IMG/VR virus record: IMGVR_UViG_3300031466_000001
Coordinates: 128,001-192,000 of that record
DNA length: 64,000 nt
Direction: 5' to 3' (one strand)
DNA from: a virus
Taxonomy: Duplodnaviria; Caudoviricetes
Part shown: piece after piece, positions 9,568 through 49,564 of the stretch
Position numbering within the stretch: position 1 is the first letter of the stretch
Layout of the letters: each line of letters starts with the position of its first letter
Translations under genes and position numbers: made by a program
Notes under the pieces: generated by a model
The model's database searches: none
What the model was told of the DNA's origin: nothing
Seen by the model: the letters and a program-made list of their open reading frames with translations, nothing else

Positions 9568-9622
9568 GCTTAATTACTCCTTTTCCATCATTTCTCTTGT
9601 ATAAATAATATATAAATGCAAA

Positions 9623-9838
9623 TTAGGTGTGCTCCCCAATAAAAATCATATCTGTTTCTTGACATGTGGATTTTGGACAAATTGGAGCCGCCATATGTTC
9701 GCCTGGCTCAGTCGTATAAAGCTCAGAACAGCCTTGACATTCATAAATACCAACAAGATTGGGATTTGCAAGATCTACTCCAAATTCAACATTACTACGA
9801 TCAAAGGAATCGAGCTGGAATCCTTTTTCTTTTTCCAT
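9623..9838 (-). CDS. Small zinc-ribbon protein
   Basis: CQGC...CPKSTC motifs; lies between gyrB and gyrA. Confidence 0.6.
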   Translation of the reverse strand: MEKEKGFQLDSFDRSNVEFGVDLANPNLVGIYECQGCSELYTTEPGEHMAAPICPKSTCQETDMIFIGEHT

Positions 9839-9840
9839 GA

Positions 9841-10084
9841 TCAAAACCATCCTTTCCTCTTTTTAAAACGTACGAATAATTCTTCAACTTCGTACTCACA
9901 TCCACAATCAGAGCACGTGTATCTGCTTATTTTAACAAGTTTACGCTTTAAAAATCCTTTGCGCACGAAATAATCATATCCATATTGAAGGAGCCGAGCA
10001 AGCTGGACATGAAGTCTTATCCATGTCCAGCTTGTTTTCCGATTTAGGAAGTCTTCCATTTCGCAAAATTCTTACCTTTGCCAT
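9841..10084 (-). pseudogene. Frameshifted zinc-ribbon gene
   Basis: RBS GGAGAGGGG and ATG 10084 give MAKVRIL...CPAC...stop (9974); the second CxxC (CSDCGC) is in the +1 frame (ORF 9841..10059). Confidence 0.55.
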
Positions 10085-10102
10085 ATAAAGACCCCTCTCC
10101 CA

Positions 10103-24261: not shown

Positions 24262-25287
24262 TTGGCAAATTATAAAGCAAAAGTTGCTTGGGATGCCGGA
24301 CATCTTGAAGATACCTTCGAGGTGGAAGGTGGAAAAGGCGTTATTGTCAATGGTGAAAAATTTGAAGAACATTGGTTCAATCTTGCAGTAGCTAAGAAAG
24401 CTGCCGAACTTGGCAAATATAATGGTATTGAACCGGTGTTAACACATGAAGCTCTTGCTGGTAAATCTAAAGATAATCTAACGACTCGCACCAATAAAGC
24501 TAAATCTGAGAAAGTTGACCTCTTGTTCAGTATTCACGCTGATGCCAGCGGTAACGCAAATGCTAAAGGTCACTGGGTCTTCTACTGGCACGCTGATACC
24601 AAAGCCAAAAAGTTAGCTGAAATTTGGGATAAGTGGGCTGACAAACTTCTTCCCAATAACGACAGAAATACCGTAGCTTGTTCTCCTAATTCGTGGGCAA
24701 ACTTCCACATGTGTCGTGTTCCCGCTTCCTACGGTATTCCTGCAATCCTTATTGAACATGCATTTATGACAAACCTTGAAGATCTTGCTTATCTTAAAAG
24801 TGAGGAATTTCGTGATCTCTGTGCTGAAGCTGCAGTTCGTGCTGCTTGTGAGTATCTTGGTATTCCTTTTAGTAAACCTCCTGCATCTGCACCTACGAAA
24901 CCTTTTGAAAAAGATCCGAGTGTCAAGTTCATTGACGTCCCCAAAGGTCATTGGGCAGTAAACGCTATCAAACTGGTTTCGGATGAAAGTATTATTAATG
25001 GTTTCACTGACGGGCGCTTCGGTATTGGTGAAGATGTGACCCGTGAACAACTGGCAGTTGTCATCTGCAATTTGATCACTAGTAGAAAGGTTAAGGTGAT
25101 TAACATGGGTAAACCCACCAAATTCACGGATGTCCCCGACAATCACTGGGCAAAAACTTCTATTGACGTTGTAAGTGCTGCTGGTATCATGGAGGGTTAT
25201 CCCGACGGCCGTTTCGGTCTCGGCAATACCGTGAAACGCGAAGAACTTGCTGTGGTTGTTTCGAGACTTATTGATACTAAAAAATAA
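24262..25287 (+). CDS. Endolysin: N-acetylmuramoyl-L-alanine amidase (Amidase_3) with two SLH domains
   Basis: WDAGH, E, FSIHAD, ILIEHAF; two repeats F.DVP..HWA..I.......GF/YPDG.FG....VTRE.LA. Confidence 0.92.
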   Translation: MANYKAKVAWDAGHLEDTFEVEGGKGVIVNGEKFEEHWFNLAVAKKAAELGKYNGIEPVLTHEALAGKSKDNLTTRTNKAKSEKVDLLFSIHADASGNANAKGHWVFYWHADTKAKKLAEIWDKWADKLLPNNDRNTVACSPNSWANFHMCRVPASYGIPAILIEHAFMTNLEDLAYLKSEEFRDLCAEAAVRAACEYLGIPFSKPPASAPTKPFEKDPSVKFIDVPKGHWAVNAIKLVSDESIINGFTDGRFGIGEDVTREQLAVVICNLITSRKVKVINMGKPTKFTDVPDNHWAKTSIDVVSAAGIMEGYPDGRFGLGNTVKREELAVVVSRLIDTKK

Positions 25288-28143: not shown

Positions 28144-28764
28144 ATGGCTGATATGAATAGGTTTGCTGTTTCTGCTCTTAGTAGAGACAGAAAGGCAGAA
28201 GCATTGCCTGAAGAACTATTAGTTCATAAACCGACAGGTCAAATGCTGATTAAAAGACCGGATGGTCGTATTATATCATATGATAAAATTTCACGTCTTA
28301 AAACTCATATAGATTTTTTAGAATCCAGTCATAGTATTATTGGTATCGATGGTGATCTCTGTCTGTTGGAATTGGATCACATAGAACTACCGAATACTGT
28401 ACAATATGAATCTAATATACTTGACAACCCTCTTACTTTAGGCGATTCACCTGTATCGAAAATTTTAATATCCATGGATATTGATTGTATGGAATTTGTA
28501 AATGGGGAAGCTTTTATCTTAAGAGATCTTCCAAGCATCAGGTTCGAATTCGAATTTGTTGATGAAAATGATCAAACTCATTCTGTAACTAAAACTGTAC
28601 CTCTAAATAAACTATCGACAAATATTTTTAATGTATTGAATTACAGTCCTAATTCTACGCCTATGAATGCAACACTAAATGGTATTTACATTGAAGAAAA
28701 TCCTTCTAACGTTGGTAAGGTTTTGGAAAATATACTGCATAGTATATTAATTATTTTAGAATAA
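28144..28764 (+). CDS. Putative tail-associated protein
   Basis: Late promoter at 28097-28108, RBS AAGGAGG. Confidence 0.6.
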   Translation: MADMNRFAVSALSRDRKAEALPEELLVHKPTGQMLIKRPDGRIISYDKISRLKTHIDFLESSHSIIGIDGDLCLLELDHIELPNTVQYESNILDNPLTLGDSPVSKILISMDIDCMEFVNGEAFILRDLPSIRFEFEFVDENDQTHSVTKTVPLNKLSTNIFNVLNYSPNSTPMNATLNGIYIEENPSNVGKVLENILHSILIILE

Positions 28765-28783
28765 AAAGGCGGGTGATTTTTAT

Positions 28784-29218
28784 ATGGCAACTTTAAGAAA
28801 ATTAAAAAACTTCAGCGAAAATAACCTAACAACATTGGATAAAATTATCGCTATAACTCTCGGAGATTCCGATATAGATTGGTATGATGAAACCAAAATT
28901 TATAATGCCGATGATTTAATTATTAGGGTAAATCCTTCTACTGGGAAGAAGGAGATTTTATCTTGTAAAAAATCCGGGGCGACTGGTCCATTTGATATTA
29001 ATGATTGGCAAGTTGTAAACATGACCAATATTTCATCAACTAGCGTAATCCCAGTATCTGAAGAAGAACCTCCGAATCCAAAACCGAATATGATTTGGTT
29101 TAAAAATATGGGGGAGTCACCAGATTTCGGTGACAACATTATAATAATTATAGGTAATGTTAGTCTCGACGGAACAACCGAATTTTGGTTTGATTCCAAT
29201 AACAGAGACGGCGAATAG
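28784..29218 (+). CDS. Putative tail-fibre adaptor protein
   Basis: W/Y-rich carbohydrate-binding-like segment and a VSEEEPPNPKPNMIWF adaptor motif. Confidence 0.55.
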   Translation: MATLRKLKNFSENNLTTLDKIIAITLGDSDIDWYDETKIYNADDLIIRVNPSTGKKEILSCKKSGATGPFDINDWQVVNMTNISSTSVIPVSEEEPPNPKPNMIWFKNMGESPDFGDNIIIIIGNVSLDGTTEFWFDSNNRDGE

Positions 29219-29251
29219 AAAAACAGTAAAAGAAAGGGGGTAAGATGAGAA

Positions 29252-31405
29252 ATGAGCAGTAAAAACATTCAGATTCGTCACAAGAATGGTAGTGAATGGG
29301 ATAATTTATACCCAAAAACAAAAGCGGAATTAGTAGAAGGTCTTGATGAGCAACTTGCCGGAAAGGTTGATAAAGAAGAAGGTAAAGGTCTTTCTACTGA
29401 AGATTATACTACAGAAGAAAAGAATAAACTTGCGGGCATTGAGGAAGGAGCCAACAAATACGTTCATCCAACTAGTGCTGGTAATAAACATATTCCTTCT
29501 GGCGGTGCGCCTAACCAGGTACTTAAATATGGCGGTTCGTCAGGAACCGCAACATGGGGTGCTCTGACATCTGCAGATATTCCTACATTGGCTCTTAGTA
29601 AGATTTCCGATGCAGGTACAGCAGCTTCCAGAGATATCGGTACTTCTGCTGGTAATGTGCCTGTATTGGATAGCAATGGTAAACTTGATGTTAATGTCCT
29701 TCCTGCAATTGCTATTTCGGATACTTTCGTTGTCGGAAGCGAAGGAGAAATGCTGGGTCTTACTGCGGAAGTTGGTGATATCGCGGTACGATCGGATATC
29801 AACAAAACATTCATTTTGAGAGCAGAACCTGCATCCGTAGTTGGCAACTGGCAAGAACTTTTGACTCCGACTTCCCCTGTACAATCTGTTGCAGGTAAAA
29901 CCGGTGCAGTTACACTGGTTAAAGGTGACGTGGGACTCGGAAACGTCCAAAACTATGGAATAGCAACACAGGAAGAAGCAGAAGCCGGAACGTCCGATAC
30001 CGCGTACATGACGCCGCTTAAAACAGCGCAGGCGATTGCTGCACTTGCACCCGCGCCGGATGCTTCGGAAGTTTCGCTTAGTTCACCGAATTTCACTTCT
30101 ACCAACGTCCGGGATGGAATGGATGAACTTTTTCAATCTGTCAGTGATGGGAAAAATCAGATCGCTTCCGCCATCACTGACATGGGACAGTCTGCTTCAG
30201 GAGGCGACACGTTTGCGCAGTTGTCAAGCAAAATTCGGGACATCTCCAAGGACGCGAACGCGGCTGTTGGGGATGTTTTGACCGGTAAGACGTTTTATCA
30301 GGGCGGAGTAAAGCGCACCGGCACGATGCCCAATAACGGATCGGTTTCCCAAACGCTGACATCACAAGGCGAAGAATACACGATCCCGGAGGGATACCAC
30401 GACGGCACCGGCACGGTCACGACCGACATCGTGAATCTGTCCGCAGGAAATATCCGAGCCGGTGCGACGGTAGGCGGCGTTGATGGTACGTTCACTAGCG
30501 ACGCGACAGCCACGGCTGGTCAAATCTTGTCTGGCCGGACGGCGTATGTTAACGGCTCGAAGGTAACCGGCAGCATGATCAACAATGGAGCCGTCAGTCA
30601 AACCTTGACCACGCAGGGGGCGTCGTACACAATCCCGGCAGGTTATCACAATGGCAGCGGCACAGTCACGGCCAATATCACCAACTTGACGGCGGCCAAT
30701 ATCAAGGCTGGTACGACGGTCGGCGGCGTATCTGGAACATTCACAAGCGACGCAACCGCAACAGCCGCACAAATCTTGTCTGGCCGGACGGCGTATGTTA
30801 ACGGCTCGAAGGTAACCGGCACGATGCCAGTCAAAACAAATGATTATGGCGCACCGCGTACAGGCCAAACTGGGCGTCTGTATGTGACACCGGAAGCAGG
30901 ATACCATGACGGGACTGTAAGGGTCTATACGGACGACGCTAATTTTAATGCTGCCAATATCAAGTCTGGGGTTACGCTGTTCGGAATAACCGGTACGTAT
31001 GCGCCGATTTCCGTAGGTAGTACAACCCTGACATTTAACCGATCCGGCTCCGGTAACAATGTTACGTCGATTATCTATTATGCGAATTACACGCCGCCCA
31101 AGACAAACTTTTTGGGGTCGTTCCAAATACCCGTTACGTTCACAATCGGGAACATTGAATATAAAGGAGACCCGTTTAACAGCATCACGATCGGATATCC
31201 GACAAACCTAATCTTCGGCTATGGTTTGTACATTGTCGACCCGACCGTTAATGCAGAAATACAAATCAGCGCCATTTATAATAGTAGCACTGGCCGTATT
31301 CAACTACAGATTGGTAACCCGTCCACAGCAAGTCCTAAAGCGTTGTTTACCAATATCAGCACCAATAGCTTTACAGCGGGTTTACGGTATGTTTCATGGG
31401 AGTGA
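29252..31405 (+). CDS. Tail fibre protein (chimeric: phage-like N-terminus, foreign GC-rich C-terminus)
   Basis: W..LYPKT N-motif, KLAGIEEGANKY.HP, VQSVAGKTGAVTL, 83-aa TSDATAT...IPAGYH repeats; base composition changes at ~29932. Confidence 0.85.
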   Translation: MSSKNIQIRHKNGSEWDNLYPKTKAELVEGLDEQLAGKVDKEEGKGLSTEDYTTEEKNKLAGIEEGANKYVHPTSAGNKHIPSGGAPNQVLKYGGSSGTATWGALTSADIPTLALSKISDAGTAASRDIGTSAGNVPVLDSNGKLDVNVLPAIAISDTFVVGSEGEMLGLTAEVGDIAVRSDINKTFILRAEPASVVGNWQELLTPTSPVQSVAGKTGAVTLVKGDVGLGNVQNYGIATQEEAEAGTSDTAYMTPLKTAQAIAALAPAPDASEVSLSSPNFTSTNVRDGMDELFQSVSDGKNQIASAITDMGQSASGGDTFAQLSSKIRDISKDANAAVGDVLTGKTFYQGGVKRTGTMPNNGSVSQTLTSQGEEYTIPEGYHDGTGTVTTDIVNLSAGNIRAGATVGGVDGTFTSDATATAGQILSGRTAYVNGSKVTGSMINNGAVSQTLTTQGASYTIPAGYHNGSGTVTANITNLTAANIKAGTTVGGVSGTFTSDATATAAQILSGRTAYVNGSKVTGTMPVKTNDYGAPRTGQTGRLYVTPEAGYHDGTVRVYTDDANFNAANIKSGVTLFGITGTYAPISVGSTTLTFNRSGSGNNVTSIIYYANYTPPKTNFLGSFQIPVTFTIGNIEYKGDPFNSITIGYPTNLIFGYGLYIVDPTVNAEIQISAIYNSSTGRIQLQIGNPSTASPKALFTNISTNSFTAGLRYVSWE
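29857..29931 (+). repeat. 75-bp perfect direct repeat, copy 1
   Basis: acttttgactcc...aaaggtgacgt, identical to 31889-31963. Confidence 0.95.
30242..30826 (+). repeat. Tandem 249-bp (83-aa) fibre repeats, about 2.3 copies
   Basis: ttcactagcgacgc at 30491 and ttcacaagcgacgc at 30740; shared caaatcttgtctggccggacggcgtatgttaacggctcgaaggtaaccggca. Confidence 0.8.
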
Positions 31406-31455
31406 AATCGTGATGACGAGAGAGGACTCATTATACAGATCGCATCGGCGGCCAA

Positions 31456-31608
31456 GCCGAGCAATATAAACAAATCACCGGATTTGATTATGAAGCGTAA
31501 GGCTCCGCCGAATAGGCGGGGCCTCATAATCTGCACAGTGTGGTACAATTAGACGCTATGACGGCAGAAGAATATGAGCAGATTACGAGCGAGCCGTACA
31601 CACCCTAA
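31456..31608 (+). pseudogene. Two XkdX-like C-terminal remnants
   Basis: AEQYKQITGFDYEA* (31456-31500) and VVQLDAMTAEEYEQITSEPYTP* (to 31608), each followed by a hairpin. Confidence 0.6.
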
Positions 31609-31805
31609 TTAGGCGCAGAGACGTGTAATTAGACCCTGCTTAATGCGGGGTCTTTTTGTTGACTTCGTAGTGACAAAAGGGAAATTTTATACGATAATAG
31701 TGTTAAAGTACTCGTAAAGTACGATTACGTTACCGTCGCTGGAAGGGGTGGAAAAGTTCCGATGGACTTTACGAGCCTTGGAGAGTACGGCGTAGGAATC
31801 GCGTC

Positions 31806-32483
31806 ATGACTTCTCCCGATGGTATAAACTGGACGATTCGTTCAACTCCGGCGGATAACAACTGGTATTCCGTCACTTATGGCAACGGACTTTTGACTCC
31901 GACTTCCCCTGTACAATCTGTTGCAGGTAAAACCGGTGCAGTTACACTGGTTAAAGGTGACGTTGGTCTTGATAATGTTGAAAACTACGGTATCGCTTCT
32001 CAAGCTGATGCTGAAGCCGGAACAGCAAATAATAAATACATGACCCCTGCGAGAGTTAAGCAAGCAATTGATGCGTTTGCTGCTCCTAAAGAGCATCAAC
32101 ATGTCGCTTCGGATATCACTCAAGATTCGACTCACCGTTTTGTAACTGATGCAGAAAAAGCTGCATGGAATGCAAAAGCAGACAAAACGGTAGCTACTAC
32201 CAGCAATAACGGCTTGATGTCGTCCGCTGATAAAGCAAAACTCGATGGAATCGAAGCTGGCGCCAATAAGTACGTACATCCGACTGGCGATGGTAATCTC
32301 CATGTGCCTCCAACTGGAACCAGCAACAACAATAAAGTGCTGAAAGCAGGGGCTACTGCTGGAAGCCTTTCCTGGGGTTATGTTAATTGGAATGAAGTAG
32401 ATGGTAAACCTGTTAACCTTGCATCTATTGTGGTTTCTGGTACTGAACCTACAAATGCTGATTTCTGGTATCAGGAAATTTAA
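31806..32483 (+). CDS. Displaced C-terminal half of the original tail-fibre gene
   Basis: Resumes LLTPTSPVQSVAGKTG in the same translation as the 29252 gene; no clear RBS; ends in VVSGTEPTNADFWYQEI. Confidence 0.65.
   Translation: MTSPDGINWTIRSTPADNNWYSVTYGNGLLTPTSPVQSVAGKTGAVTLVKGDVGLDNVENYGIASQADAEAGTANNKYMTPARVKQAIDAFAAPKEHQHVASDITQDSTHRFVTDAEKAAWNAKADKTVATTSNNGLMSSADKAKLDGIEAGANKYVHPTGDGNLHVPPTGTSNNNKVLKAGATAGSLSWGYVNWNEVDGKPVNLASIVVSGTEPTNADFWYQEI
31889..31963 (+). repeat. 75-bp perfect direct repeat, copy 2
   Basis: Identical to 29857-29931. Confidence 0.95.
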
Positions 32484-32700
32484 TTTAATCTATTTGTGAA
32501 TAGTCTATAAATTAAATGAAAAAACACTTTTTGGGGTCGGATGGATTAAAAAGTCCATCCGACCGCCAAGTTTCTATTATAATATAGACAGACAACTATA
32601 TTTACCAAAATTTAAATGGAAAACAAAAATGTAATAAATATTTATTCTATCTGTATTTATAAGGAGAATTAACAAAATATAAAGAACGGAGGTATTTTAA

Positions 32701-33450
32701 ATGGCAAAAAATATACTACAGAAACAATACGTACCTGGTGTCGGATGGGTTGAGCTTCATCCAATTACTAAAGCGTCCAATATTATAGATTCAAACGGTC
32801 TTAGTGTACAAGAGCATATTGATGCTAAAAATCCACATGGAACTGATAAAAGTGATGTAGGTCTTGGTAATGTTGAAAACTATGGTATTGCATCTAAAAC
32901 TGAAGCCGAAGCCGGAACTGCAAGTAACAAGTACATGACACCACAAAGAACTTCCCAGGCAATTGCAGCTTTGTCGCCTGTGAAGTCGGTTGCTGGTAAG
33001 ACGGGTGCAGTGACTCTCGTAAAGGGAGATGTAGGTCTCGGAAACGTTGAGAACTATGGCATTGCATCTAAAACTGAAGCCGAAGAGGGAACTGCAAGTA
33101 ATAAGTATATGACTCCTGAGAGAACATCTCAGGCGATTGCTGTTCAAGCCCAGGCTATTGCAGATGAAGTTGAAAACAGATCAAAAGAGTATGCTGATCT
33201 GTTGATGGAACAGAAGATTATTGAAATTCCTTCTAGGTCAGGTAAAGACGAGAATGGAATTTTCACGATCGTTGAATATTACAGACCAAATAATACATTA
33301 GCACGAAAAACCGAACTTAGCGGTGGGTCGTCTCCGAATTATACAACAAGAACCATAACCTTCTATGCAGAAGACGGTATGACTGTGACAAAAACAGTCA
33401 CAAGAACCTTAATTTATGATGAGGATGGAGATTTCCTGCGAGAAGAATAA
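32701..33450 (+). CDS. Tail fibre/adaptor protein
   Basis: W.ELHP.TKA N-motif, NPHG..KSDVGLGNVENY, two GIAS..EAE.GT..NKYMTP repeats; late promoter at 32622-32633. Confidence 0.8.
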   Translation: MAKNILQKQYVPGVGWVELHPITKASNIIDSNGLSVQEHIDAKNPHGTDKSDVGLGNVENYGIASKTEAEAGTASNKYMTPQRTSQAIAALSPVKSVAGKTGAVTLVKGDVGLGNVENYGIASKTEAEEGTASNKYMTPERTSQAIAVQAQAIADEVENRSKEYADLLMEQKIIEIPSRSGKDENGIFTIVEYYRPNNTLARKTELSGGSSPNYTTRTITFYAEDGMTVTKTVTRTLIYDEDGDFLREE

Positions 33451-33741
33451 AAATAAGGGATAAGGTATTTAACCTTATCCTTTATTTTTTTACATTGAAA
33501 TTCACTTCAAAAATATCATCCTAATTACAGTTATTTTTCCATCGTTAATAGAGATTAATAAAAATAAGAATTTCGTGACAAAAACAGATACATAATAAGA
33601 TAAAAAATATCCTTAAATGTCATATGATTAATTCTATTTCATCATAACCAAAAAATTGTGAGATCTCAAATCTCGGGAACTCAAATTGTAATTGAGTTTG
33701 TGAGTAAAATTATAGATTAATAAAAAATTGGGGTGAAAGAA

Positions 33742-35871
33742 GTGAACGATTTAATTTATCATGGGTTAATTGGGAAAAAAATTGATTCTGTAGAGGTGCT
33801 AAATAATGAATTTATTGCTACAGATGACAATGTGGAGCTGGCTAGTTCATATAATTTACCTAATACTGGACGCTCTGTCTCATTCTCTCCCGATGGTCAA
33901 TATATAGCTGTAGGACATAGTGGTTCTCCTTATTTTACTCTATTAAAAAGAAATGGAGATAATGTAAAACTAGCTAGTAATTATATATTACCTAGTACTG
34001 GCTATGGTGTATCATTCTCTCCCGATGGTCAATATATAGCTGTAGCACATACTGCTTCTCCTAATTTTACTTTACTAAAAAGAAATGGAGATAATGTAGA
34101 ATTAGCTAGTACTTATACATTACCTGGCAATGGAAACTCTGTATCATTCTCTCCTGATGGTCAATATATAGCTGTAGGATATGATCTTTCTCCTCGTTTT
34201 ACTTTACTAAAAAGAAATGGAGATAATGTAGAATTAGCTAGTAATTATATATTACCTGGTATTGGACGTTCTGTCTCATTCTCTCCCGATGGTCAATATA
34301 TAGCTGTAGGGCATTATGCTTCTCCTTATTTTACTCTATTAAAAAGAAATGGAGATACTGTAGAACTAGCTAGTACTTATACATTACCTAGTGATGGCTT
34401 AGGTGTATCATTCTCTCCTGATGGTCAATATATAGCTGTAGCACATAATGGTTCTCCTTATTTTACTTTACTAAAAAGAAATGGAGATAATGTAGAATTA
34501 GCTAGTACTTATACACTATCTAACTATGGCTTTGGTGTATCATTCTCTCCCGATGGTCAATATATAGCTGTAGGATATTATGGTTCTCCTTATTTTACTT
34601 TACTAAAAAGAAATGGAGATAATGTAGAATTAGCTAGTACTTATACATTACCTGGCAATGGCACGGGTGTATCATTCTCTCCCGATGGTCAATATATAGC
34701 TGTAGGACATTTTAGTTCTCCTTATTTTACTCTATTAAAAAGAAATGGAGTACAAGAAGCCATCGAAATTAAAACTAAAGTAAATGTTATTAAAGAAATT
34801 GATGGTCAGTTAAAAGAGGTTAAAAGTAATAAGATATTTAGAGATGTAAAAGAATTAGTTTATAAGAATAATTATGAAAAAGTACTACTAGCTGATACTT
34901 ATACATTACCCAATATCGCCACGGGTGTATCATTTTCTCCCGATGGTCAATATATAGCTGTAGGACATTATGATTCTCCTTATTTTACTTTACTAAAAAG
35001 AAATGGAGATAATGTAGAATTAGCTAGTAATTATACATTAACTGGTAATGCTGGAGGTGTATCATTCTCTCCTGATGGTAAATATATAGCTGTAGCATAT
35101 TATGGTTCTCCTTATTTTACTCTATTAAAAAGAAATGGAGATAATGTAGAACTAGCTAGTACTTATACATTACCTAGTTATGGCCATGGTGTATTATTCT
35201 CTCCCGATGGTCAATATATAGCTGTAGCACATTGGGGTTCTCCTCATTTTACTTTACTAAAAAGAAATGGAGATAATGTAGAACTAGCTAGTAATTATAC
35301 ATTACCTGATATTGGCTTGAGAGTATCATTCTCTCCCGATGGTCAATATATAGCTGTAGGACATTATGGTTCTCCTTATTTTACTCTATTAAAAAGAAAT
35401 GGAGATACTGTAGAACTAGCTAGTACTTATACATTACCTGGTGCTACCGAAAATGTATCATTCTCTCCCGATGGTCAATATATAGCTGTAGGATATTATG
35501 GTTCTCCTTATTTTACTCTATTAAAAAGAAATGGGGATACTGTAGAATTAGCTAGTAATTATACATTACCTAATATTGGATACTCTGCCCCATTCTCTCC
35601 CGATGGTCAATATATAGCTGTAGCACATAATGGTTCTCCTTATTTTACTTTACTAAAAAGAAATGGAGATAATGTAGAATTAGCTAGTACTTATACATTA
35701 CCTGGTGATGGCTATAGTGTATCATTCTCTCCTGATGGTCAATATATAGCTGTAGGACATAATGGTTCTCCTTATTTTACTTTACTAAAAGCAGGAGGAA
35801 CTTTTTCAAAAACCCCTCCAATCTTTATTGAATATAGAGGTAAAAGATATAAGATGCGTACAATTAATTGA
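33742..35871 (+). CDS. Double 7-bladed beta-propeller (WD40-like) protein A, putative receptor-binding protein
   Basis: 14 x 44-aa repeats ...VSFSPDGQYIAV..SPYFTLLKRNGDNVEL in two blocks of 7 joined by a linker; probable GTG start at 33742. Confidence 0.9.
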   Translation: MNDLIYHGLIGKKIDSVEVLNNEFIATDDNVELASSYNLPNTGRSVSFSPDGQYIAVGHSGSPYFTLLKRNGDNVKLASNYILPSTGYGVSFSPDGQYIAVAHTASPNFTLLKRNGDNVELASTYTLPGNGNSVSFSPDGQYIAVGYDLSPRFTLLKRNGDNVELASNYILPGIGRSVSFSPDGQYIAVGHYASPYFTLLKRNGDTVELASTYTLPSDGLGVSFSPDGQYIAVAHNGSPYFTLLKRNGDNVELASTYTLSNYGFGVSFSPDGQYIAVGYYGSPYFTLLKRNGDNVELASTYTLPGNGTGVSFSPDGQYIAVGHFSSPYFTLLKRNGVQEAIEIKTKVNVIKEIDGQLKEVKSNKIFRDVKELVYKNNYEKVLLADTYTLPNIATGVSFSPDGQYIAVGHYDSPYFTLLKRNGDNVELASNYTLTGNAGGVSFSPDGKYIAVAYYGSPYFTLLKRNGDNVELASTYTLPSYGHGVLFSPDGQYIAVAHWGSPHFTLLKRNGDNVELASNYTLPDIGLRVSFSPDGQYIAVGHYGSPYFTLLKRNGDTVELASTYTLPGATENVSFSPDGQYIAVGYYGSPYFTLLKRNGDTVELASNYTLPNIGYSAPFSPDGQYIAVAHNGSPYFTLLKRNGDNVELASTYTLPGDGYSVSFSPDGQYIAVGHNGSPYFTLLKAGGTFSKTPPIFIEYRGKRYKMRTIN
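33841..35790 (+). repeat. 14 x 132-bp blade repeats (7+7)
   Basis: Period 132 bp (gctagt at 33841, 33973...); second block starts at 34891. Confidence 0.95.
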
Positions 35872-36167
35872 TATGGGGATTTAAAATAAAAGATTTATAT
35901 TTACATGAAATAATAAAAAGACATGCTTCAGCAAAAATACTAAAAAAAAATAAATTCAATTATACTGATGATGGACTAAATCTTATAAGATCATATATTT
36001 CATCATATATTGTATATGATGTGTCATTTCCCCCTTTGGTCAATTTATTCACGGTTCGTGACACGCTTTTCACCTTATTAAAGGCTAGTGATATATTTAA
36101 ATCAAACCCCTTCCCAACTATTGTCGAATGTAGAGGGAGAAAATATAGAGTTAGGGAAAAATCTTAA
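35868..36167 (+). CDS. Short paralog of the propeller proteins lacking the repeat array
   Basis: DLYLHEII...KIL.KNKF..TDD matches the N-cap; FTLLKA..IF.S.P..IVE.RG.KY matches the C-cap; one degenerate blade. Confidence 0.6.
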   Translation: MIWGFKIKDLYLHEIIKRHASAKILKKNKFNYTDDGLNLIRSYISSYIVYDVSFPPLVNLFTVRDTLFTLLKASDIFKSNPFPTIVECRGRKYRVREKS

Positions 36168-36184
36168 TAAAGGAGGTAAGTAAT

Positions 36185-38308
36185 TTGGAAGAGCTTTATT
36201 TTCACGAATTGCTACGACAAGGCGTTTCAGTAAATATTCTAAATAATAAATTTATTGCTACAGATGACAATGTGGAGCCGGCTAGTTCATATAAATTGCC
36301 TAACTATGGCTATAGTGTTTCATTCTCTCCCGATGGTCAATATATAGCTGTAGGACATGTTGGTTCTCCTCGTTTTACTTTACTAAAAAGAAATGGAGAT
36401 AATGTAGAATTAGCTAGTACTTATACATTATCCGATACTGGACGCTCTATCTCATTCTCTCCCGATGGTCAATATATAGCTATAGGACATAGCGGTTCTC
36501 CTGGTTTTACTTTACTAAAAAGAAATGGAGATAATGTAGAACTAGCTACTAAATATACATTACCTGATGTTGGATATGGTACGGCATTCTCTCCCGATGG
36601 TCAATATATAGCTGTGGGACATAATGGTTCTCCTTATTTTACTCTATTAAAAAGAAATGGAGATAATGTAGAACTAGCTAGTACTTATACATTATCCGCT
36701 ACTGGACGTTCTGTCTCATTCTCTCCCGATGGTCAATATATAGCTGTAGCACATGCTGGTTCTCCTCGTTTTACTTTACTAAAAAGAAATGGAGATAATG
36801 TAGAACTAGCTAGTACTTATACATTACCTAGTGATAGCTTTGATGCATCATTCTCTCCTGATGGTCAATATATAGCTGTAGCACATTATGTTTCTCCTCA
36901 TTTTACTCTATTAAAAAGAAATGGAGATAATGTAGAACTAGCTAGTACTTATACATTACCTAGTACTGGCTTGGGTGTATCATTCTCTCCCGATGGTCGA
37001 TATATAGCTGTAGCACATTATGGTTCTCCTTATTTTACTTTACTAAAAAGAAATGGAGATAATGTAGAACTAGCTAGTACTTATACATTACCTAGTGTCG
37101 CCATGGATGTATCATTCTCTCCCGATGGTCAATATATAGCTGTAGGATATATTAATTCTCCTCCTTATTTTACTCTATTAAAAAGAAATGGAGTACAAGA
37201 AGCCATCGAAATTAAAACTAAAGTAAATGTTATTAAAGAAATTGATGGTCAGTTAGAAGAGGTTAAAGGTAATAAGATATTTAGAGATGTAAAAGAATTA
37301 GTTTATAAGAATAATTATGAAAAAGTATTACTAGCTAGTACTTATACATTACCTTTTACTAGCTTGGATGTATCATTCTCTCCCGATGGTCAATATATAG
37401 CTGTAGAACATAATAGTTCTCCTTATTTTACTTTACTAAAAAGAAATGGAGATAATGTAGAACTAGCTAGTACTTATACATTACCTGGTGGTGCCGAAGG
37501 TATATCATTCTCTCCCGATGGCAAATATATAGCTGTAGCACATTATGGTTCTCCTTATTTTACTTTACTAAAAAGAAATGGAGATAATGTAGAATTAGCT
37601 AGTACTTATACATTATCTGACGGTGGCTATGGTGTATCATTCTCTCCCGATGGTCAATATATAGCTGTAGGACATCATGGTTCTCCTTATTTTACTCTAT
37701 TAAAAAGAAATGGAGATAATGTAGAACTAGCTAGTAATTATACATTACCTAGTAATGGCTTGGGTGTATCATTTTCTCCCGATGGTCAATATATAGCTGT
37801 AGGATATAATGGTTTTCCTTATTTTACTTTACTAAAAAGAAATGGAGATAATGTAGAATTAGCTAGTACTTATACATTACCTGGTACTAGCTATGGTGTA
37901 TCATTCTCTCCCGATGGTCAATATATAGCAGTGGGACATTTTGGTTCTCCTTATTTTACTCTATTAAAAAGAAATGGAGATAATGTAGAATTAGCTAGTA
38001 CTTATACATTACCTGGTAATGCCGAAGATGTATCATTCTCTCCCGATGGTCAATATATAGCTGTAGGACATTGGGGTTCTCCTTGTTTTACTCTATTAAA
38101 AAGAAATGGAGATAATGTAGAACTAGCTAGTAATTATACATTACCTGGTACTAGCTATGGTGTATCATTCTCTCCCGATGGTCAATATATAGCAGTGGGA
38201 CATAGCGATTCTCCTTATTTTACCCTATTAAAAGCAGGAGGAACTTTTTCATCACAAAATCCTATTATTATAAAATATAGAGATGTCGAATACGAACTTG
38301 TGTGGTAA
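36185..38308 (+). CDS. Double 7-bladed beta-propeller (WD40-like) protein B
   Basis: Same 14 x 44-aa architecture and near-identical linker to protein A; RBS AGGAGG, TTG start. Confidence 0.9.
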   Translation: MEELYFHELLRQGVSVNILNNKFIATDDNVEPASSYKLPNYGYSVSFSPDGQYIAVGHVGSPRFTLLKRNGDNVELASTYTLSDTGRSISFSPDGQYIAIGHSGSPGFTLLKRNGDNVELATKYTLPDVGYGTAFSPDGQYIAVGHNGSPYFTLLKRNGDNVELASTYTLSATGRSVSFSPDGQYIAVAHAGSPRFTLLKRNGDNVELASTYTLPSDSFDASFSPDGQYIAVAHYVSPHFTLLKRNGDNVELASTYTLPSTGLGVSFSPDGRYIAVAHYGSPYFTLLKRNGDNVELASTYTLPSVAMDVSFSPDGQYIAVGYINSPPYFTLLKRNGVQEAIEIKTKVNVIKEIDGQLEEVKGNKIFRDVKELVYKNNYEKVLLASTYTLPFTSLDVSFSPDGQYIAVEHNSSPYFTLLKRNGDNVELASTYTLPGGAEGISFSPDGKYIAVAHYGSPYFTLLKRNGDNVELASTYTLSDGGYGVSFSPDGQYIAVGHHGSPYFTLLKRNGDNVELASNYTLPSNGLGVSFSPDGQYIAVGYNGFPYFTLLKRNGDNVELASTYTLPGTSYGVSFSPDGQYIAVGHFGSPYFTLLKRNGDNVELASTYTLPGNAEDVSFSPDGQYIAVGHWGSPCFTLLKRNGDNVELASNYTLPGTSYGVSFSPDGQYIAVGHSDSPYFTLLKAGGTFSSQNPIIIKYRDVEYELVW
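36281..38233 (+). repeat. 14 x 132-bp blade repeats (7+7)
   Basis: Same unit as 33841-35790; second block starts at 37334; blade 7 has a one-codon insertion (SPPY). Confidence 0.95.
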
Positions 38309-38894: not shown

Positions 38895-41024
38895 TTATTT
38901 CCTCTTGCTCTTCAGAGACATAATCGGCATACTGCGTAATTTGAAACTCTTGACAGCCTGCTCCATAAAATACTCTTGGACATTGAATGGAACAGGACTT
39001 TTCAAAAGTTCGTACTGATTGTCTTTATTGAGAATGTAGGTGTTGAATGTGTCGCGGAAATACATTTTCAAAATAGACAAGAGTTTATTTCTGGAATTTT
39101 CGTCCGTAATCGGAACCAGAAGTTCAACCCGTCTGTCCAAATTCCGCGTCAACATATCAGCACTTGAAATGAAAATATCTGACTTTCCATTATTGTAGAA
39201 GAAGTAAATTCTACTATGCTCTAGAAATCTACCAACAACACTCTTGATGCTGATGTTCGAATTGATTTTCTTCATCGAGCATATACCTCTACAGATAATG
39301 GATATCTTGACACCCTGCTCAGAGGCCTCATACAGCTTCTTGATAATACCCAGATCAGAAAGGGAGTTAAGCTTCAACGTAATGAAAGCTTGTCTACCCT
39401 TTTGAGCATTCTCGATCTCTCGATCGATAAGCTGATACAATCTCAATCTCAGATTGTACGGAGCATAGAAAATTTTGCTCACTTCGTCTCTGGGATCGGA
39501 GAAACCTGACAAGACATTAAATATCGTCAACAGGTCATCCGCTATTTTGCTGCTGGATGTGAAGTAGGAAATATCGGTATAGATTGACGCAGTCTTGTCG
39601 TTGTAATTTCCTGTACCGATATGGCAATACGTTTTGAGATTTTTCTTTCCTTTCCTCACAACCAATATAAATTTACAATGTGTTTTCAACTCCTCAATAC
39701 CATAGATCAATTTACAGCCGGATACTTTTAGTTTTTCTATCAACGACATATTTCTATTCTCATCAAACCTTGCTTTAATTTCGAGAAGAACACTTACCTG
39801 CTTTCCTCTTTCAGCAGCCCTACACAACGCCTCGACAATCGGGGACTCCGCAGAAGATACTCTATACAGAGTCAATTTGATTGCCAAGACATCATTATCC
39901 TCGGCCGCATGTTCGAGGAATTTGATAACCGGTGTGAACGACTCGTAAGGGTGATGAAGAATGAGATCGCCGTTGTCGATAGCAGTAAACATATCGTGCT
40001 CGCCGATCAGATCTTCTGGATACTGAGGGTTGAACGGGTCGTACTCGTAAGCCGCATTTCTTATCGGCTTACTTAAGAGAAACGACATGTCTACGATGTT
40101 TTCACATTTAAACACTTGCCTCTTGTCAATGTCGAAGATTTTGGTCAGAAGTTTGAGGGTTTCCTTAGGAACATCACTGTCGATATCCATGAAGATGGGT
40201 TTACTAAACTCCCGTTTAATGAGAGTTTCCCTCATTCGGTCGACAATATAAATATCCCGTCTTCCCTCAATTTCAATATCCGCCTCACGAATGATTCTCA
40301 TACATCCCCTATAGATGATACTCTTGTTGATAAATACCTTGTGGAGAAAATTAAAGATAATATCCTCCAACAAGATATATCGTTCTTCATCGCTCTCGTC
40401 AGTCTCAATCTTGTACAAACGATCAAGACCATGGAGTGGGATGATGGACATTACATTCAGATTTGGATTTTTCTTGTCCCCTAGAGAAGCTATTATGCAT
40501 AGCTGCTTAGATTTAATAAGGGGAAATTCTTTGGTTGAGTCAAAGGTGATCGGGGTCAGCAACGGATAAATGTTTCTTTCGAAAAGCTTTCTTACATAAT
40601 CAACTTCCTTTTCACTGAGATGCTTGAACTTACAAATCGTGAAATTGTTTTTACGCAGTTTCTTTCTCAGTTTTTCAAAGCTTTCTTGCTGGATTTCTTT
40701 GAAAGAAATAATTTCCCGGAGCAAGAGTTCATATTCTTGCTCCGGGAGAAGACCAGCAATATCCGTTTCTGTATACCCCAATCTGAGTTTATTAAGGATA
40801 GATGAAAATCTAACCATAATAAACTCATCCAGGTTCGATTCCGTGATACCCAAGAACTTAAGTCTCTCCAAAAGAGGAACCTCAGTTCTCATAGTTTGAT
40901 GGAGAACCCTTTTATTGAACTCCATCCAACTCAATTCACGATTCATATAGAATCCTGGATTATTAAACTTTGACCTAATCCTATCTCTTTCAACGTCGAA
41001 GAGATCACTAAGATTGTTAGTCAT
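38895..41024 (-). CDS. ppk1: Polyphosphate kinase 1
   Basis: NRELSW..FN.RVL, LLERLKFLGI..SNLDEF.MVR, HHPYESF, K.TLYR, EIKARFDE..N, LKTHCK, GTGNYN, RFLEHSR, SSAD...RNLDRRVE. Confidence 0.95.
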   Translation of the reverse strand: MTNNLSDLFDVERDRIRSKFNNPGFYMNRELSWMEFNKRVLHQTMRTEVPLLERLKFLGITESNLDEFIMVRFSSILNKLRLGYTETDIAGLLPEQEYELLLREIISFKEIQQESFEKLRKKLRKNNFTICKFKHLSEKEVDYVRKLFERNIYPLLTPITFDSTKEFPLIKSKQLCIIASLGDKKNPNLNVMSIIPLHGLDRLYKIETDESDEERYILLEDIIFNFLHKVFINKSIIYRGCMRIIREADIEIEGRRDIYIVDRMRETLIKREFSKPIFMDIDSDVPKETLKLLTKIFDIDKRQVFKCENIVDMSFLLSKPIRNAAYEYDPFNPQYPEDLIGEHDMFTAIDNGDLILHHPYESFTPVIKFLEHAAEDNDVLAIKLTLYRVSSAESPIVEALCRAAERGKQVSVLLEIKARFDENRNMSLIEKLKVSGCKLIYGIEELKTHCKFILVVRKGKKNLKTYCHIGTGNYNDKTASIYTDISYFTSSSKIADDLLTIFNVLSGFSDPRDEVSKIFYAPYNLRLRLYQLIDREIENAQKGRQAFITLKLNSLSDLGIIKKLYEASEQGVKISIICRGICSMKKINSNISIKSVVGRFLEHSRIYFFYNNGKSDIFISSADMLTRNLDRRVELLVPITDENSRNKLLSILKMYFRDTFNTYILNKDNQYELLKSPVPFNVQEYFMEQAVKSFKLRSMPIMSLKSKRK

Positions 41025-48148: not shown

Positions 48149-49564
48149 TCAAATATTATTGAACTCGTAAAGACCAATCAATTGGTCTTTAAGAAGATTG
48201 AATTCATTGTTAAACAACCCGTCGTTCCTAGAAATGAACATATTAAGTCTCGGATTAAATGCCCTGAACGCCTTTTTCAGTTCTTTCGTTTTCAGTGACA
48301 CAATATTGAGAACGTCACCATCGAAGTCCGCGTTCAAGACAGTGAGAACTTGAATCGGAATCGACATGGTATAATCCTCTTCGTGTGCACGTTTAATGTC
48401 AATAACTTTCATACAGAGTACCGATCCATAGTTAATGGTTGGATTCCGGTTAATGATCATAGCCGGTTTCCATTTCTTAACGATGTACATCATCACTTCA
48501 TAGATCTTAGGGTCGAAGTTTATTGTTGCCTTATACCATTCCTCATATGCTTCGTTATGAGTAATTCTCTCCATTTTGGCCAGAAGAGCAATTATCTCAT
48601 ATTTGTACAATTCGAGGAACGTTAAATACCCCAGACGAATTTCATCTGCTCTCAAAGTTGGATCGGGGATAACAACGTTTCTTGCAGAAAAGTTGATTCG
48701 ACCACCAAGAAGCTGATACCTGATATGCCCATCTTTTTGGTTAACTTGATTGAATACAAGTTGCCAAAGTTCATTAACTTTCTTTTGAATTACAGACAAG
48801 GTTACAGCTTCTCCGAGTTTTTCTTTCTTTTTCCTCTGACGAGTCGTCAGGAGAGACTCATCATGAAGAAGTCTACTTAATGCAAAGATCGTTTCATATT
48901 TTCTATCAAAGCTACTAAAGAAGAAGTTTTCACCTCTAAACGAGACCGGTCGAAGAACCGACGAGTATACCGGGATACAAGATGCAAAAACTTTGTCCTT
49001 ATCCCTCATAATCTCATCGAAAAGTTCCGTTTGTTTATTCTTCTTCTTTTCGTAGAAATAATCCATAATCTCTTCGAATCTTTCACGAAACTCGATCAAC
49101 CCAATACCTTTAAATGGACTTTTTCCTTTCTTGCTAATAATTTCACCATCTCTGGTGATTTCTTTGTCGTATTCAATGATTTCACTGAAAGCTTTATCGC
49201 CAATGGCGACTTTAAGCATTCTATAGAACAACGGTTGAATAATAGCATAATCGCCGAGTTTAATCCAACCGGTAACTTTCATATTCACGTCACGAAAGAT
49301 TACTTTATGTCCACAAATTTTACATACCTCGCCTTCGTATACACGACCTTTAAGTTCCTTACATCTACAGCTATATCTTTCCGAGAATGCATCTTCGTCT
49401 TCCCAATCGGTCGCAAACCTAGGCGATTGAATACCATTGAATGATTTTTCTTCTTTATTTTTTATGAATGCGTAATCCGTAACTTCAAAACCGTTTCCGG
49501 TAATAAAACTAATTTCACATTGTTCATCCCAACTAATTTTCTTCAATTGTACAGTTTTACCCAT
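48149..49564 (-). CDS. rpoC: Split RNA polymerase beta' subunit, N-terminal catalytic part (probably non-virion RNAP)
   Basis: Zn finger CRC...CKIC, GGRINFSARNVV.PD, INRNPTI, NADFDGD; early promoter at 49641-49650. Confidence 0.93.
   Translation of the reverse strand: MGKTVQLKKISWDEQCEISFITGNGFEVTDYAFIKNKEEKSFNGIQSPRFATDWEDEDAFSERYSCRCKELKGRVYEGEVCKICGHKVIFRDVNMKVTGWIKLGDYAIIQPLFYRMLKVAIGDKAFSEIIEYDKEITRDGEIISKKGKSPFKGIGLIEFRERFEEIMDYFYEKKKNKQTELFDEIMRDKDKVFASCIPVYSSVLRPVSFRGENFFFSSFDRKYETIFALSRLLHDESLLTTRQRKKKEKLGEAVTLSVIQKKVNELWQLVFNQVNQKDGHIRYQLLGGRINFSARNVVIPDPTLRADEIRLGYLTFLELYKYEIIALLAKMERITHNEAYEEWYKATINFDPKIYEVMMYIVKKWKPAMIINRNPTINYGSVLCMKVIDIKRAHEEDYTMSIPIQVLTVLNADFDGDVLNIVSLKTKELKKAFRAFNPRLNMFISRNDGLFNNEFNLLKDQLIGLYEFNNI

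What the first reader, a model, noticed from the sequence alone, without database searches (positions are those of the whole stretch)
29252..32483. Tail-fibre gene with an excisable foreign cassette: potential two-state host-range switch
Seen: 29857-29931 and 31889-31963 are identical over 75 bp and bracket ~1.96 kb of much higher GC and different codon usage. As assembled, the gene reads the native N-terminus plus a foreign C-terminus (717 aa). Recombination between the repeats removes 2032 bp and joins 29252-29931 to 31964-32483 in frame, giving a 399-aa fibre. Inference: a captured fibre tip has displaced the original C-terminus, which is kept intact as a silent reserve, so reversion is possible without a dedicated recombinase.
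Basis: partly seen in the sequence, partly recalled or inferred. Interest (0 to 1): 0.8.

Follow-up and report, generated by a model that had tools for sequence, protein, structure and literature searches.

The report
Tail-fibre gene split by captured tip
A large phage's ~400-residue tail-fibre gene was interrupted by about 2 kb of prophage DNA that gave it a new tip and left the old gene end stranded behind a 75-bp duplication; this is a clear snapshot of ordinary fibre mosaicism, with no evidence that it works as a switch.

Summary
The stretches 29857-29931 and 31889-31963 are identical over 75 bp. They bracket 1957 bp of 51% GC in a phage of about 34% GC. Joining the flanks gives an open 399-codon frame.

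The arrangement is real. At least 11 independently assembled metagenome contigs carry it, and in six of them a SNP tells the two copies apart.

The "captured tip, displaced end" inference is well supported:
- The predicted 399-aa product aligns end to end with natural 398-420-aa fibre proteins that share its C-terminal ...TEP....W[YF]QEI ending.
- The inserted block is a patchwork. It holds a fibre tip 96% identical to a PBSX-like, ~49%-GC phage, XkdX gene scraps, a terminator, and part of one propeller-repeat unit that supplies the ATG of the stranded 225-aa ORF.

The "two-state switch" is not supported:
- No deleted allele appears in protein searches that do find the 717-aa form.
- A deletion would be one-way.
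- The stranded ORF has a weak ribosome-binding site.
- Strain variation is concentrated in the captured tip, so that tip looks like the working one.

I rate this an ordinary mosaic tail fibre caught at an informative intermediate stage, of modest interest.

The parts
29252..31405 (+). Chimeric tail-fibre gene as it stands (717 aa, P0001), with a strong RBS (GGGGG) upstream.
   Evidence: PHROG tail and minor-tail hits on residues 100-260. The identical or near-identical gene occurs in many metagenome contigs.
29252..29856 (+). Native N-terminal module (virion-attachment end and shaft motifs).
   Evidence: GC3 is 0.27, like the phage. It is 40-68% identical to the N-termini of many fibres that carry different C-termini.
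29857..29931 (+). 75-bp direct repeat, copy A (encodes LLTPTSPVQSVAGKTGAVTLVKGDV).
   Evidence: GC3 is 0.23, native-like. A 29865C>T polymorphism (T205I) occurs in six contigs.
29932..30133 (+). Continuation of the conserved hinge motif plus a linker. It is foreign, from an unidentified fibre gene.
   Evidence: Identity to copy B's downstream flank falls to about 62%. GC3 rises to 0.32-0.44. It is absent from L002.
30134..31520 (+). Captured fibre tip: a linker, 83-aa internal repeats and a distal beta-rich domain of about 130 aa, plus 115 nt beyond the stop codon.
   Evidence: 96.4% identical over 1388 nt to L002, the 634-aa fibre of a ~49% GC PBSX-like tail module. GC3 is 0.57. Relatives at 41-67% identity occur in Paenibacillaceae genomes.
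31417..31608 (+). Two 3' fragments of XkdX-like genes (31417-31500 and 31516-31608), both without starts.
   Evidence: PF09693 scores 28.6 bits (cut-off 23.5) for 31516-31608, matching profile positions 17-40 of 40. The score for 31417-31500 is a weak 14.7 bits.
31631..31662 (+). Terminator-like hairpin with a T-run, brought in with the foreign DNA.
   Evidence: A 9-bp stem with 6 GC pairs, followed by TTTTTGTT. Fold energy is -22.8 kcal/mol, z = -2.9.
31670..31698 (+). Sigma-70-like promoter match (GTGACA-17-GATAAT). Function unproven.
   Evidence: 10 of 12 positions match. Such sites are only modestly enriched here (26 found against 15.9 expected).
31795..31888 (+). Fragment of one 126-nt unit of a 42-aa propeller (EPTP-like) repeat gene. 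It supplies the ATG at 31806.
   Evidence: 92.6% identical to units of L097/L098. The Met is the conserved internal Met of ...GNRVMTSPDGINWT.... P0006 hits PF03736.
31889..31963 (+). 75-bp direct repeat, copy B.
   Evidence: It is invariant in all the contigs examined.
31806..32483 (+). Stranded ORF (225 aa, P0003): propeller scrap, then the repeat, then the original fibre 3' end. Its RBS is weak (AGGA only).
   Evidence: It is a single identical sequence in 19 contigs.
31964..32483 (+). Displaced original 3' end of the ~400-aa fibre gene, ending ...VVSGTEPTNADFWYQEI.
   Evidence: GC3 is 0.31. The same C-terminal ending and collinearity are seen in P0015, P0038, P0050, P0055 and P0068.
32701..33450 (+). 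Next fibre-like gene (249 aa, P0002), carrying two further copies of the hinge motif. Included as context and as a marker of the original gene order.
   Evidence: P0010 shows a ~380-aa fibre fused directly to a P0002-like protein.
28361..32766 (+). Variable block that contains the whole feature. It is absent from 'type-1' relatives, which have 836 bp here and a 351/363-aa form of P0002.
   Evidence: L001, L179 and L180 break at the same two coordinates.

Best explanation
This is a mosaic tail-fibre locus caught at an intermediate stage. A ~400-aa fibre gene (N-terminal attachment and shaft module, a conserved hinge motif ...LLTPxSPVQSVAGKTGAVTLxKGDVGLGNVxNYGIA..., and a short C-terminal part ending TEP....WYQEI) was interrupted just after the first 75 nt of the hinge. 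The incoming DNA was about 1.96 kb of composite material from PBSX-like prophages or phages of Paenibacillaceae-type hosts. The left junction (29931/29932) lies inside the conserved motif, so it looks like homology-guided crossover or template switching. The right junction (31888/31889) joins a scrap of a propeller-repeat gene to the native sequence at a short, imperfect microhomology (TGGCAA..ACTTTT). In the native gene that right junction maps 75 nt upstream of the left one, so those 75 nt were duplicated. The result is a 717-aa fibre with a new receptor-binding tip, followed by its own stop and terminator. The old 3' end remains as a leftover ORF that happens to begin at an in-frame Met from the propeller scrap. 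The captured tip is the working part. Homologous recombination between the two 75-bp copies could delete 2032 bp and restore the 399-aa gene. That would be an occasional, irreversible by-product and not a regulated switch. Shown here: the repeat, the composition, the origins of the pieces, the in-frame join, the collinearity with the ~400-aa family, and the persistence across strains. Inferred: the order of events, the junction mechanism, and which protein is functional.
For: (1) The repeat, frame and composition are as stated. (2) The predicted 399-aa product aligns 1-399 against P0015 (1-413 of 413), P0050 (1-420 of 420), P0055 (1-398 of 399), P0038 and P0068. All of these end with the same ...[ST]..[EQ]P.....W[YF][QK]EI as P0003. 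The 717-aa protein matches them only to about residue 265. (3) P0010 shows a ~380-aa fibre ending VWFQEI, followed directly by a P0002-like protein. This is the same order as 31964-32483 followed by 32701-33450. (4) The pieces have distinct origins. 30134-31520 is 96% identical to L002, whose neighbours are YqbQ, Baseplate_J, Mu Gp48, XhlA and Amidase_3+SLH. There are XkdX fragments. 31795-31888 is 92.6% identical to one unit of the propeller-repeat protein of L097/L098. L098 comes from the same sample (3300033752) as the 133-kb contig that is 100% identical to the window. (5) The arrangement is real and persistent. It has the same layout in contigs from at least 11 samples, both JGI and ENA/SPAdes assemblies. 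29865C>T marks copy A only, in six contigs. The longest contig is 212 kb. (6) The tip is the evolving, presumably functional part. Between strains, 26 and 32 SNPs cluster in 30550-30829 and 30869-31376. Of these, 18/26 match the internal paralogous repeat (gene conversion) and 21/32 match the L002 allele (exchange with the donor pool), giving 18 amino-acid changes in residues 540-709. There are none in 31377-33014. (7) The remnant ORF has only AGGA as an RBS, while its neighbours have GGAGG-type sites. It lies behind a terminator-like hairpin. It also lacks the N-terminal motif (KNIQ/L..W..L.P.TKA) shared by P0001 and P0002.
Against: No relative with the uninterrupted 399-aa gene was found, so the ancestral state is inferred from distant homologs (34-44% identity) and not observed in this lineage. 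The nearest relatives (L001, L179, L180) lack the whole block 28361-32766. The interruption may therefore have happened in another phage before the block arrived here. Collinearity of N1+C2 with the family would also be expected if the two halves came from two paralogous genes. The microhomology at the right junction is short and imperfect. A promoter-like site and an ATG do exist, so expression of the 225-aa ORF cannot be excluded. The sources of 29932-30133 and 31609-31794 remain unidentified. The fold of the captured tip could not be assigned: mean pLDDT was 69, and no Foldseek match reached E<=0.001.
Confidence: 0.75

Rival explanations
1. One reading: a recombinase-free two-state host-range switch. 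The repeats are maintained so that the phage population toggles between the 717-aa fibre and the 399-aa fibre.
For: The join across the repeats is exactly in frame and gives a family-typical full-length fibre. The remnant carries no SNP in any strain. The phage encodes recombination and repair nucleases (an SbcD-like protein and a PD-(D/E)XK nuclease), so recombination over 75-bp homology is physically plausible (established knowledge).
Against: Deletion between direct repeats discards the insert, so there is no return path within a lineage. No deleted allele appears in a 5.8-billion-protein collection that does contain the 717-aa form and the 225-aa form from 19 contigs. Copy A has drifted to 74/75 in several strains, so identity is not strictly maintained. 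No site-specific recombinase was found among the ORFs tested in the window. The repeat is explained as a by-product of staggered junctions.
Confidence: 0.08
2. There were two formerly independent paralogous fibre genes in tandem. The first swapped its tip by ordinary replacement. The second lost its 5' part to incoming debris. The 75-bp identity is a gene-conversion tract between the paralogs, not a duplication made at insertion.
For: The hinge motif occurs four times in the locus, and its copy number varies between strains (P0002 is 249 or 307 aa), so motif-to-motif exchange does occur here. Gene conversion between internal repeats is seen in the tip. Collinearity of N1+C2 with the family does not distinguish this rival from the single-gene model.
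Against: No trace of a second N-terminus lies between 31406 and 31888; there is only foreign debris. The left end of the identity coincides exactly with the scrap/native junction, and the native sequence upstream of copy A shares microhomology with the scrap. The sizes fit one gene: 399 aa against 398-420 aa in the family. The conserved pairing is one ~400-aa fibre followed by a P0002-like gene.
Confidence: 0.12
3. Assembly artefact: a prophage-derived path was threaded through a shared 75-mer.
For: An exact repeat with foreign-GC content between the copies is the classic signature of such an artefact. All the data here come from metagenome assemblies.
Against: The layout is identical in contigs from at least 11 samples, two data centres and different assemblers. 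A SNP is specific to copy A. The non-homologous scrap/repeat junction must exist on real reads. The repeat is shorter than the larger k-mers and read lengths in common use (inference).
Confidence: 0.02
4. The 225-aa ORF is an expressed, functional accessory protein, for example a fibre subunit that co-assembles through the shared hinge. This is not exclusive of the main explanation.
For: The frame is intact, and there is a promoter-like site and an ATG with AGGA eight nt upstream. The sequence is identical in 19 contigs. It is 48/63 identical to P0001 across the hinge.
Against: It lacks the N-terminal attachment motif. Its first 27 residues are a broken blade of an unrelated repeat. Its RBS is weak relative to the neighbours. 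Its content is generic shaft repeats that lie mid-protein in long fibres.
Confidence: 0.1

Closest known systems
Tail-fibre mosaicism by recombination at conserved motifs. From my own knowledge: T-even gp37/gp38 'His-box' exchanges described by Tetart, Krisch and colleagues, and P2/Mu/lambda-type fibre exchange described by Haggard-Ljungquist and by Sandmeier. General statements that recombination in tail-fibre genes changes host range are in PMC11577772.
   Same: A conserved coding motif serves as the crossover point. The C-terminal receptor-binding part is exchanged between unrelated phages while the N-terminal part is kept.
   Different: Here the new tip was inserted rather than substituted, because the right junction is illegitimate. 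As a result the old 3' end and a 75-bp duplication remain. The donor is a PBSX-like prophage-type module and the recipient is a phage of at least 212 kb.
Invertible-segment host-range switches (Mu G segment with Gin, P1 C segment with Cin, e14 Pin). Own knowledge.
   Same: One constant N-terminal fibre part can be joined to either of two C-terminal parts stored in the genome.
   Different: Those systems use inverted repeats, oppositely oriented alternative ends and an adjacent serine invertase, and they are reversible. Here the repeats are direct, both ends have the same orientation, no recombinase was found, and the only possible event is an irreversible deletion.
A natural family of ~400-aa fibre proteins (P0015, P0038, P0050, P0055, P0068), unnamed in Pfam.
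   Same: The N-terminal module, the hinge motif and the C-terminal TEP....W[YF]QEI ending are all present in the window, in the same order.
   Different: In the window the gene is split: the first 226 codons are at 29252-29931 and the last 173 at 31964-32483.
PBSX-like prophage tail-fibre/XkdX/XhlA/amidase module, as in L002.
   Same: The tip is 96% identical to the L002 fibre. XkdX-like fragments and a terminator follow the stop, as expected for that gene order.
   Different: Only fragments were transferred. No complete XkdX, holin or lysin came with them.

Membership tests
~400-aa fibre family (P0015/P0050/P0055 type) | N-terminal module homologous over about the first 226-265 residues | tested here: met
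   One search gives 40-50% identity at 100% coverage to the 398-420-aa members. One search confirms this.
~400-aa fibre family (P0015/P0050/P0055 type) | C-terminal ending ...[ST]..[EQ]P.....W[YF][QK]EI at the very end of the protein | tested here: met
   P0003 ends VVSGTEPTNADFWYQEI. The members end in the same way. The 717-aa protein does not.
~400-aa fibre family (P0015/P0050/P0055 type) | One continuous gene of about 400 codons, collinear end to end | tested here: not met
   Only the join of 29252-29931 with 31964-32483 is collinear 1-399. As the window stands, the gene is interrupted.
Invertible-segment fibre switch (Gin/Cin/Pin type) | Inverted repeats flanking alternative C-terminal exons | tested here: not met
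   The repeats are direct. No matching inverted pair brackets the region.
Invertible-segment fibre switch (Gin/Cin/Pin type) | An adjacent site-specific recombinase gene | tested here: not met
   No recombinase family was found among the roughly 30 ORFs scanned against Pfam or PHROGs. Not every ORF in the window was scanned.
Diversity-generating retroelement | A template/variable repeat pair differing at adenines, plus a reverse transcriptase | tested here: not met
   The two copies are identical, or differ by a single C>T. No reverse transcriptase was seen among the scanned ORFs. The strain differences are explained by conversion or exchange tracts.
PBSX-like prophage fibre module (as the donor) | Fibre followed by XkdX, within a Baseplate_J/Gp48 tail module | tested here: met
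   L002 carries YqbQ, Baseplate_J, Mu Gp48, the fibre, XhlA and Amidase_3+SLH. The window fragment 31516-31608 hits PF09693 above its cut-off.
Pfam PF03406 phage tail fibre repeat | A Pfam hit on the hinge motif | tested here: not met
   P0001, P0002 and P0003 give no Pfam family at E<=0.01. Some homologs (P0010, P0021, P0086) do carry PF03406.

The most novel reading that the evidence does not exclude
The stranded 3' end and its 75-bp repeat act as a population-level reserve. Deletion revertants with the 399-aa fibre arise in every burst at an appreciable frequency and rescue the phage when hosts lose the receptor for the captured tip. This would be a recombinase-free, one-way bet-hedging device, which selection preserves by keeping the remnant intact.
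Probability: 0.08. Interest if true: 0.6.

Novelty: new member of a known kind. Interest (0 to 1): 0.3.

Why it matters
The locus is an unusually legible record of how a fibre tip moves between very different phages, from a PBSX-like prophage-type module to a phage of at least 212 kb. Both junctions, the passenger debris and the displaced gene end are still readable, and the captured tip is already diversifying among strains. It shows that module capture can happen by insertion with a target duplication, and not only by clean replacement. It also gives a ready natural test case for measuring how often short direct repeats revert such events. It does not reveal a new kind of host-range mechanism.

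Tried and rejected
- **Deletion-junction pattern scan.** I scanned for the left flank of copy A, 75 nt, then the right flank of copy B. There were 0 hits in metagenome contigs and in viral contigs. The positive control (left flank plus the repeat start) also gave 0 in metagenome contigs. Viral contigs showed no window-type locus at all.
- **GenBank phage collection.** There was no megablast match. The blastn hits were only short motif matches, and tblastn found only module-level relatives.
- **Whole genome.** No whole genome is held for this window.
- **L097's 634-aa ORF as a second donor fibre.** It is unrelated to L002's 634-aa fibre; the equal length is a coincidence.
- **The extra motif unit in the 307-aa P0002 variant.** I tested whether it is a recent copy of the 29873-30042 region. 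It is only 86% identical, so it is not evidence of recent ectopic exchange.
- **Structure of the captured tip.** Mean pLDDT was 69 and pTM 0.31. The distal part is beta-rich. No Foldseek PDB match reached E<=0.001, and there was no PDB sequence match. No fold was assigned.
- **Tandem Repeats Finder.** It reported nothing in 29200-33500, although blast shows 249-nt internal repeats at 78% identity.
Full report
**What is in the sequence**

The repeat finder and a direct string test show that 29857-29931 and 31889-31963 are identical 75-mers, 2032 nt apart. Flank-specific patterns hit each copy once. Identity is at the random level upstream of the repeat (8/30, 7/30) and 75/75 within it. It is about 62% for the next 120 nt and then random again.

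The repeat encodes part of a fibre 'hinge' motif, LLTPTSPVQSVAGKTGAVTLVKGDV followed by GLGNVxNYGIA...YMTP...AI. That motif occurs four times in the locus, and the other copies are only 65-86% alike. Exact identity over 75 nt is therefore a recent event and not simply conservation.

The ORFs are 29252-31405 (717 aa, P0001), 31806-32483 (225 aa, P0003) and 32701-33450 (249 aa, P0002). The bracketed 1957 bp has GC 0.507, against 0.34 in the surrounding phage. Third-position GC separates native-like parts from foreign ones:
- N-terminal module: 0.27
- the repeat: 0.23
- old 3' end: 0.31
- P0002: 0.29
- captured tip: 0.57
- propeller scrap: 0.52

Joining 29252-29931 to 31964-32483 gives 399 codons plus a stop.

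**The setting**

The window belongs to a large phage. It carries GyrA/GyrB, an RNA-polymerase beta-prime-like fragment, Dda- and DnaB-type helicases, SbcD-like and PD-(D/E)XK nucleases, an SLH-bearing amidase and a PPK1. The longest public contig carrying the same proteins is 212 kb.

**The arrangement is real**

An exact-protein look-up finds the 225-aa product on 19 contigs. The 10 displayed come from 10 different samples, JGI and ENA, including SPAdes NODE contigs. All have the 717-aa gene 400 nt upstream. A 133-kb contig is 100% identical to the window over 18 kb. In six contigs copy A carries 29865C>T while copy B does not, so the copies are separately resolved and the duplication predates strain divergence. 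I put misassembly at about 2%.

**What the insert is made of**

It is not one cassette.
1. 30134-31520 is 96.4% identical to L002, a ~49% GC contig. L002's 634-aa fibre sits in a PBSX-like tail module: YqbQ, Baseplate_J, Mu Gp48, the fibre, XhlA and Amidase_3+SLH.
2. Behind the stop codon lie two 3' fragments of XkdX-like genes. One scores above the Pfam cut-off. They are followed by a good terminator-like hairpin and a promoter-like site.
3. 31795-31888 is 92.6% identical to part of one 126-nt unit of a 42-aa propeller-repeat protein in L097/L098. The ATG of the 225-aa ORF is that repeat's conserved internal Met. L098 comes from the same sample as the 133-kb contig of this phage.
4. 29932-30133 continues the hinge motif but comes from an unidentified fibre gene.

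Homologs of the tip at 41-67% identity lie in Paenibacillus cisolokensis, P. flagellatus, P. alba, Gorillibacterium and an uncultured Bacillales genome. Only the L002 type shares the distal ~120 residues. The 83-aa internal repeats are widespread.

**Was there a 399-aa gene?**

A search with the N-terminal 226 residues finds many fibres that share this module but carry different C-termini. Among them is a set of 398-420-aa proteins covering the whole module. These proteins end in ...TEP/QP.....W[YF][QK]EI, exactly as P0003 does. The joined 399-aa product aligns 1-399 to P0015 (1-413 of 413), P0050 (1-420 of 420), P0055 (1-398 of 399), P0038 and P0068. The 717-aa protein aligns to them only as far as about residue 265.

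P0010 shows a ~380-aa fibre ending VWFQEI and running straight into a P0002-like protein. This is the same neighbour order as in the window. The stranded 3' end therefore looks like the original end of a ~400-aa fibre gene, still at its original position.

The rival is two paralogous genes plus a gene-conversion tract. It is not excluded, but three things count against it:
- There is no remnant of a second N-terminus.
- The left end of the identity coincides with the scrap/native junction.
- The sequence upstream of copy A (TGGCAAgaACTTTT) resembles the scrap's TGGCAAcggACTTTT.

**How it probably arose (inference)**

The left junction lies within the conserved motif, so it was probably homology-guided. 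The right junction is illegitimate and maps 75 nt upstream of the left one in the native gene. That offset duplicates the 75 nt. Template switching during replication, or two crossovers involving sister genomes, would both produce this.

**Which end is working**

Between strains the only dense variation lies in the captured tip.
- 26 SNPs fall in 30550-30829, and 18 of them match the paralogous internal repeat 249 nt upstream. That points to gene conversion.
- 32 SNPs fall in 30869-31376, and 21 of them match the L002 allele. That points to exchange with the donor pool. They give 18 amino-acid changes in residues 540-709.
- There are no SNPs in 31377-33014.

The 717-aa gene has a strong RBS. 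The 225-aa ORF has only AGGA and lies behind the terminator-like hairpin. It also lacks the N-terminal motif shared by P0001 and P0002. Its recognisable content is generic shaft repeats that sit mid-protein in longer fibres.

**The switch idea**

Recombination between 75-bp direct repeats is plausible in a phage with its own recombination nucleases. However, it deletes the insert, so it is one-way. No deleted allele was found:
- The N-terminal search returns the 717-aa cluster as the only hit at 90% identity or above within the 394-1255 aa range.
- The search for longer relatives of P0003 gives nothing above 83% identity over a small part.
- P0003's cluster holds a single sequence.

The DNA junction scans were uninformative because their positive control failed. 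Minor revertant subpopulations cannot be excluded without reads.

The nearest relatives (L001, L179, L180) lack the entire block 28361-32766, with the same boundaries in each. L179 co-occurs with a window-type contig in one sample. The whole block is therefore itself a polymorphism, and the interruption may predate its arrival in this lineage.

**Comparison and verdict**

This is tail-fibre mosaicism through a conserved motif, a long-known process (own knowledge; general statements in PMC11577772). The less common feature is that the exchange was an insertion, which left the old end and a duplication behind. It fails the defining features of invertible-segment switches and of DGRs (see the membership table).

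I rate it a new member of a known kind, with interest 0.3. It is a neat, well-documented intermediate and not a new mechanism. Earlier first-reader notes from this scan on the same stretch made the same observation. They also pointed to the XkdX scraps and to the microhomology; I tested the first and partly tested the second.

Noticed in passing
33733-38308: Two adjacent genes (712 and 707 aa) are each built of about 14 near-identical 44-aa propeller blades (SFSPDGQYIAVG...FTLLKRNGDNVELAS), with very low GC3 (0.10-0.11). Their size varies between strains: 712/707 aa here, 624 aa in L164, 665 aa in L179, and a single 316-aa gene in L180. Blade number is therefore polymorphic.
   Followed up: partly
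32701-33450: The next fibre-like gene exists as 249-aa (two hinge units), 307-aa (three units) and 351/363-aa (different N-terminus) forms in closely related contigs. This indicates unequal exchange at the same hinge motif.
   Followed up: partly
28361-32766: This whole block (the C-terminus of the 216-aa protein, the 144-aa gene, the split fibre and the N-terminus of P0002) is replaced by 836 bp in relatives L001, L179 and L180, with identical boundaries. Both locus types occur in one sample (3300025529), and contigs tend to break here.
   Followed up: partly
30377-30821: The captured tip contains internal 249-nt (83-aa) repeats, 78% alike. One strain group's SNP cluster (30550-30829) is mostly a conversion from the upstream unit.
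   Followed up: yes
38895-41024 (- strand): A full-length polyphosphate kinase 1 (PP_kinase N, middle and C domains by precomputed Pfam) is encoded convergently to the fibre cluster. It is conserved in all related contigs.
   Followed up: no
P0128 / P0132 (NCBI HEY8396537.1, HEY8396539.1): A 5.8-kb contig carrying this phage's 717-aa and 249-aa proteins is deposited in a MAG labelled Flavihumibacter sp. (Bacteroidota). It is most likely a mis-binned phage contig.
   Followed up: no
24262-25287 and L002:7915-8736: The recipient phage and the donor-type module L002 both encode an Amidase_3 lysin with SLH domain(s). This is compatible with hosts that have similar SLH-binding cell walls.
   Followed up: no
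7165-12535 and 48149-49564 (- strand): GyrA- and GyrB-like genes and an RNA-polymerase Rpb1-domain-2 fragment are present, typical of jumbo phages.
   Followed up: no
P0010 (Logan contig, 2.6 kb): A 728-aa protein looks like a ~380-aa fibre (ending VWFQEI) fused in frame to a P0002-like protein. It could be a natural fusion or a missed stop codon.
   Followed up: no
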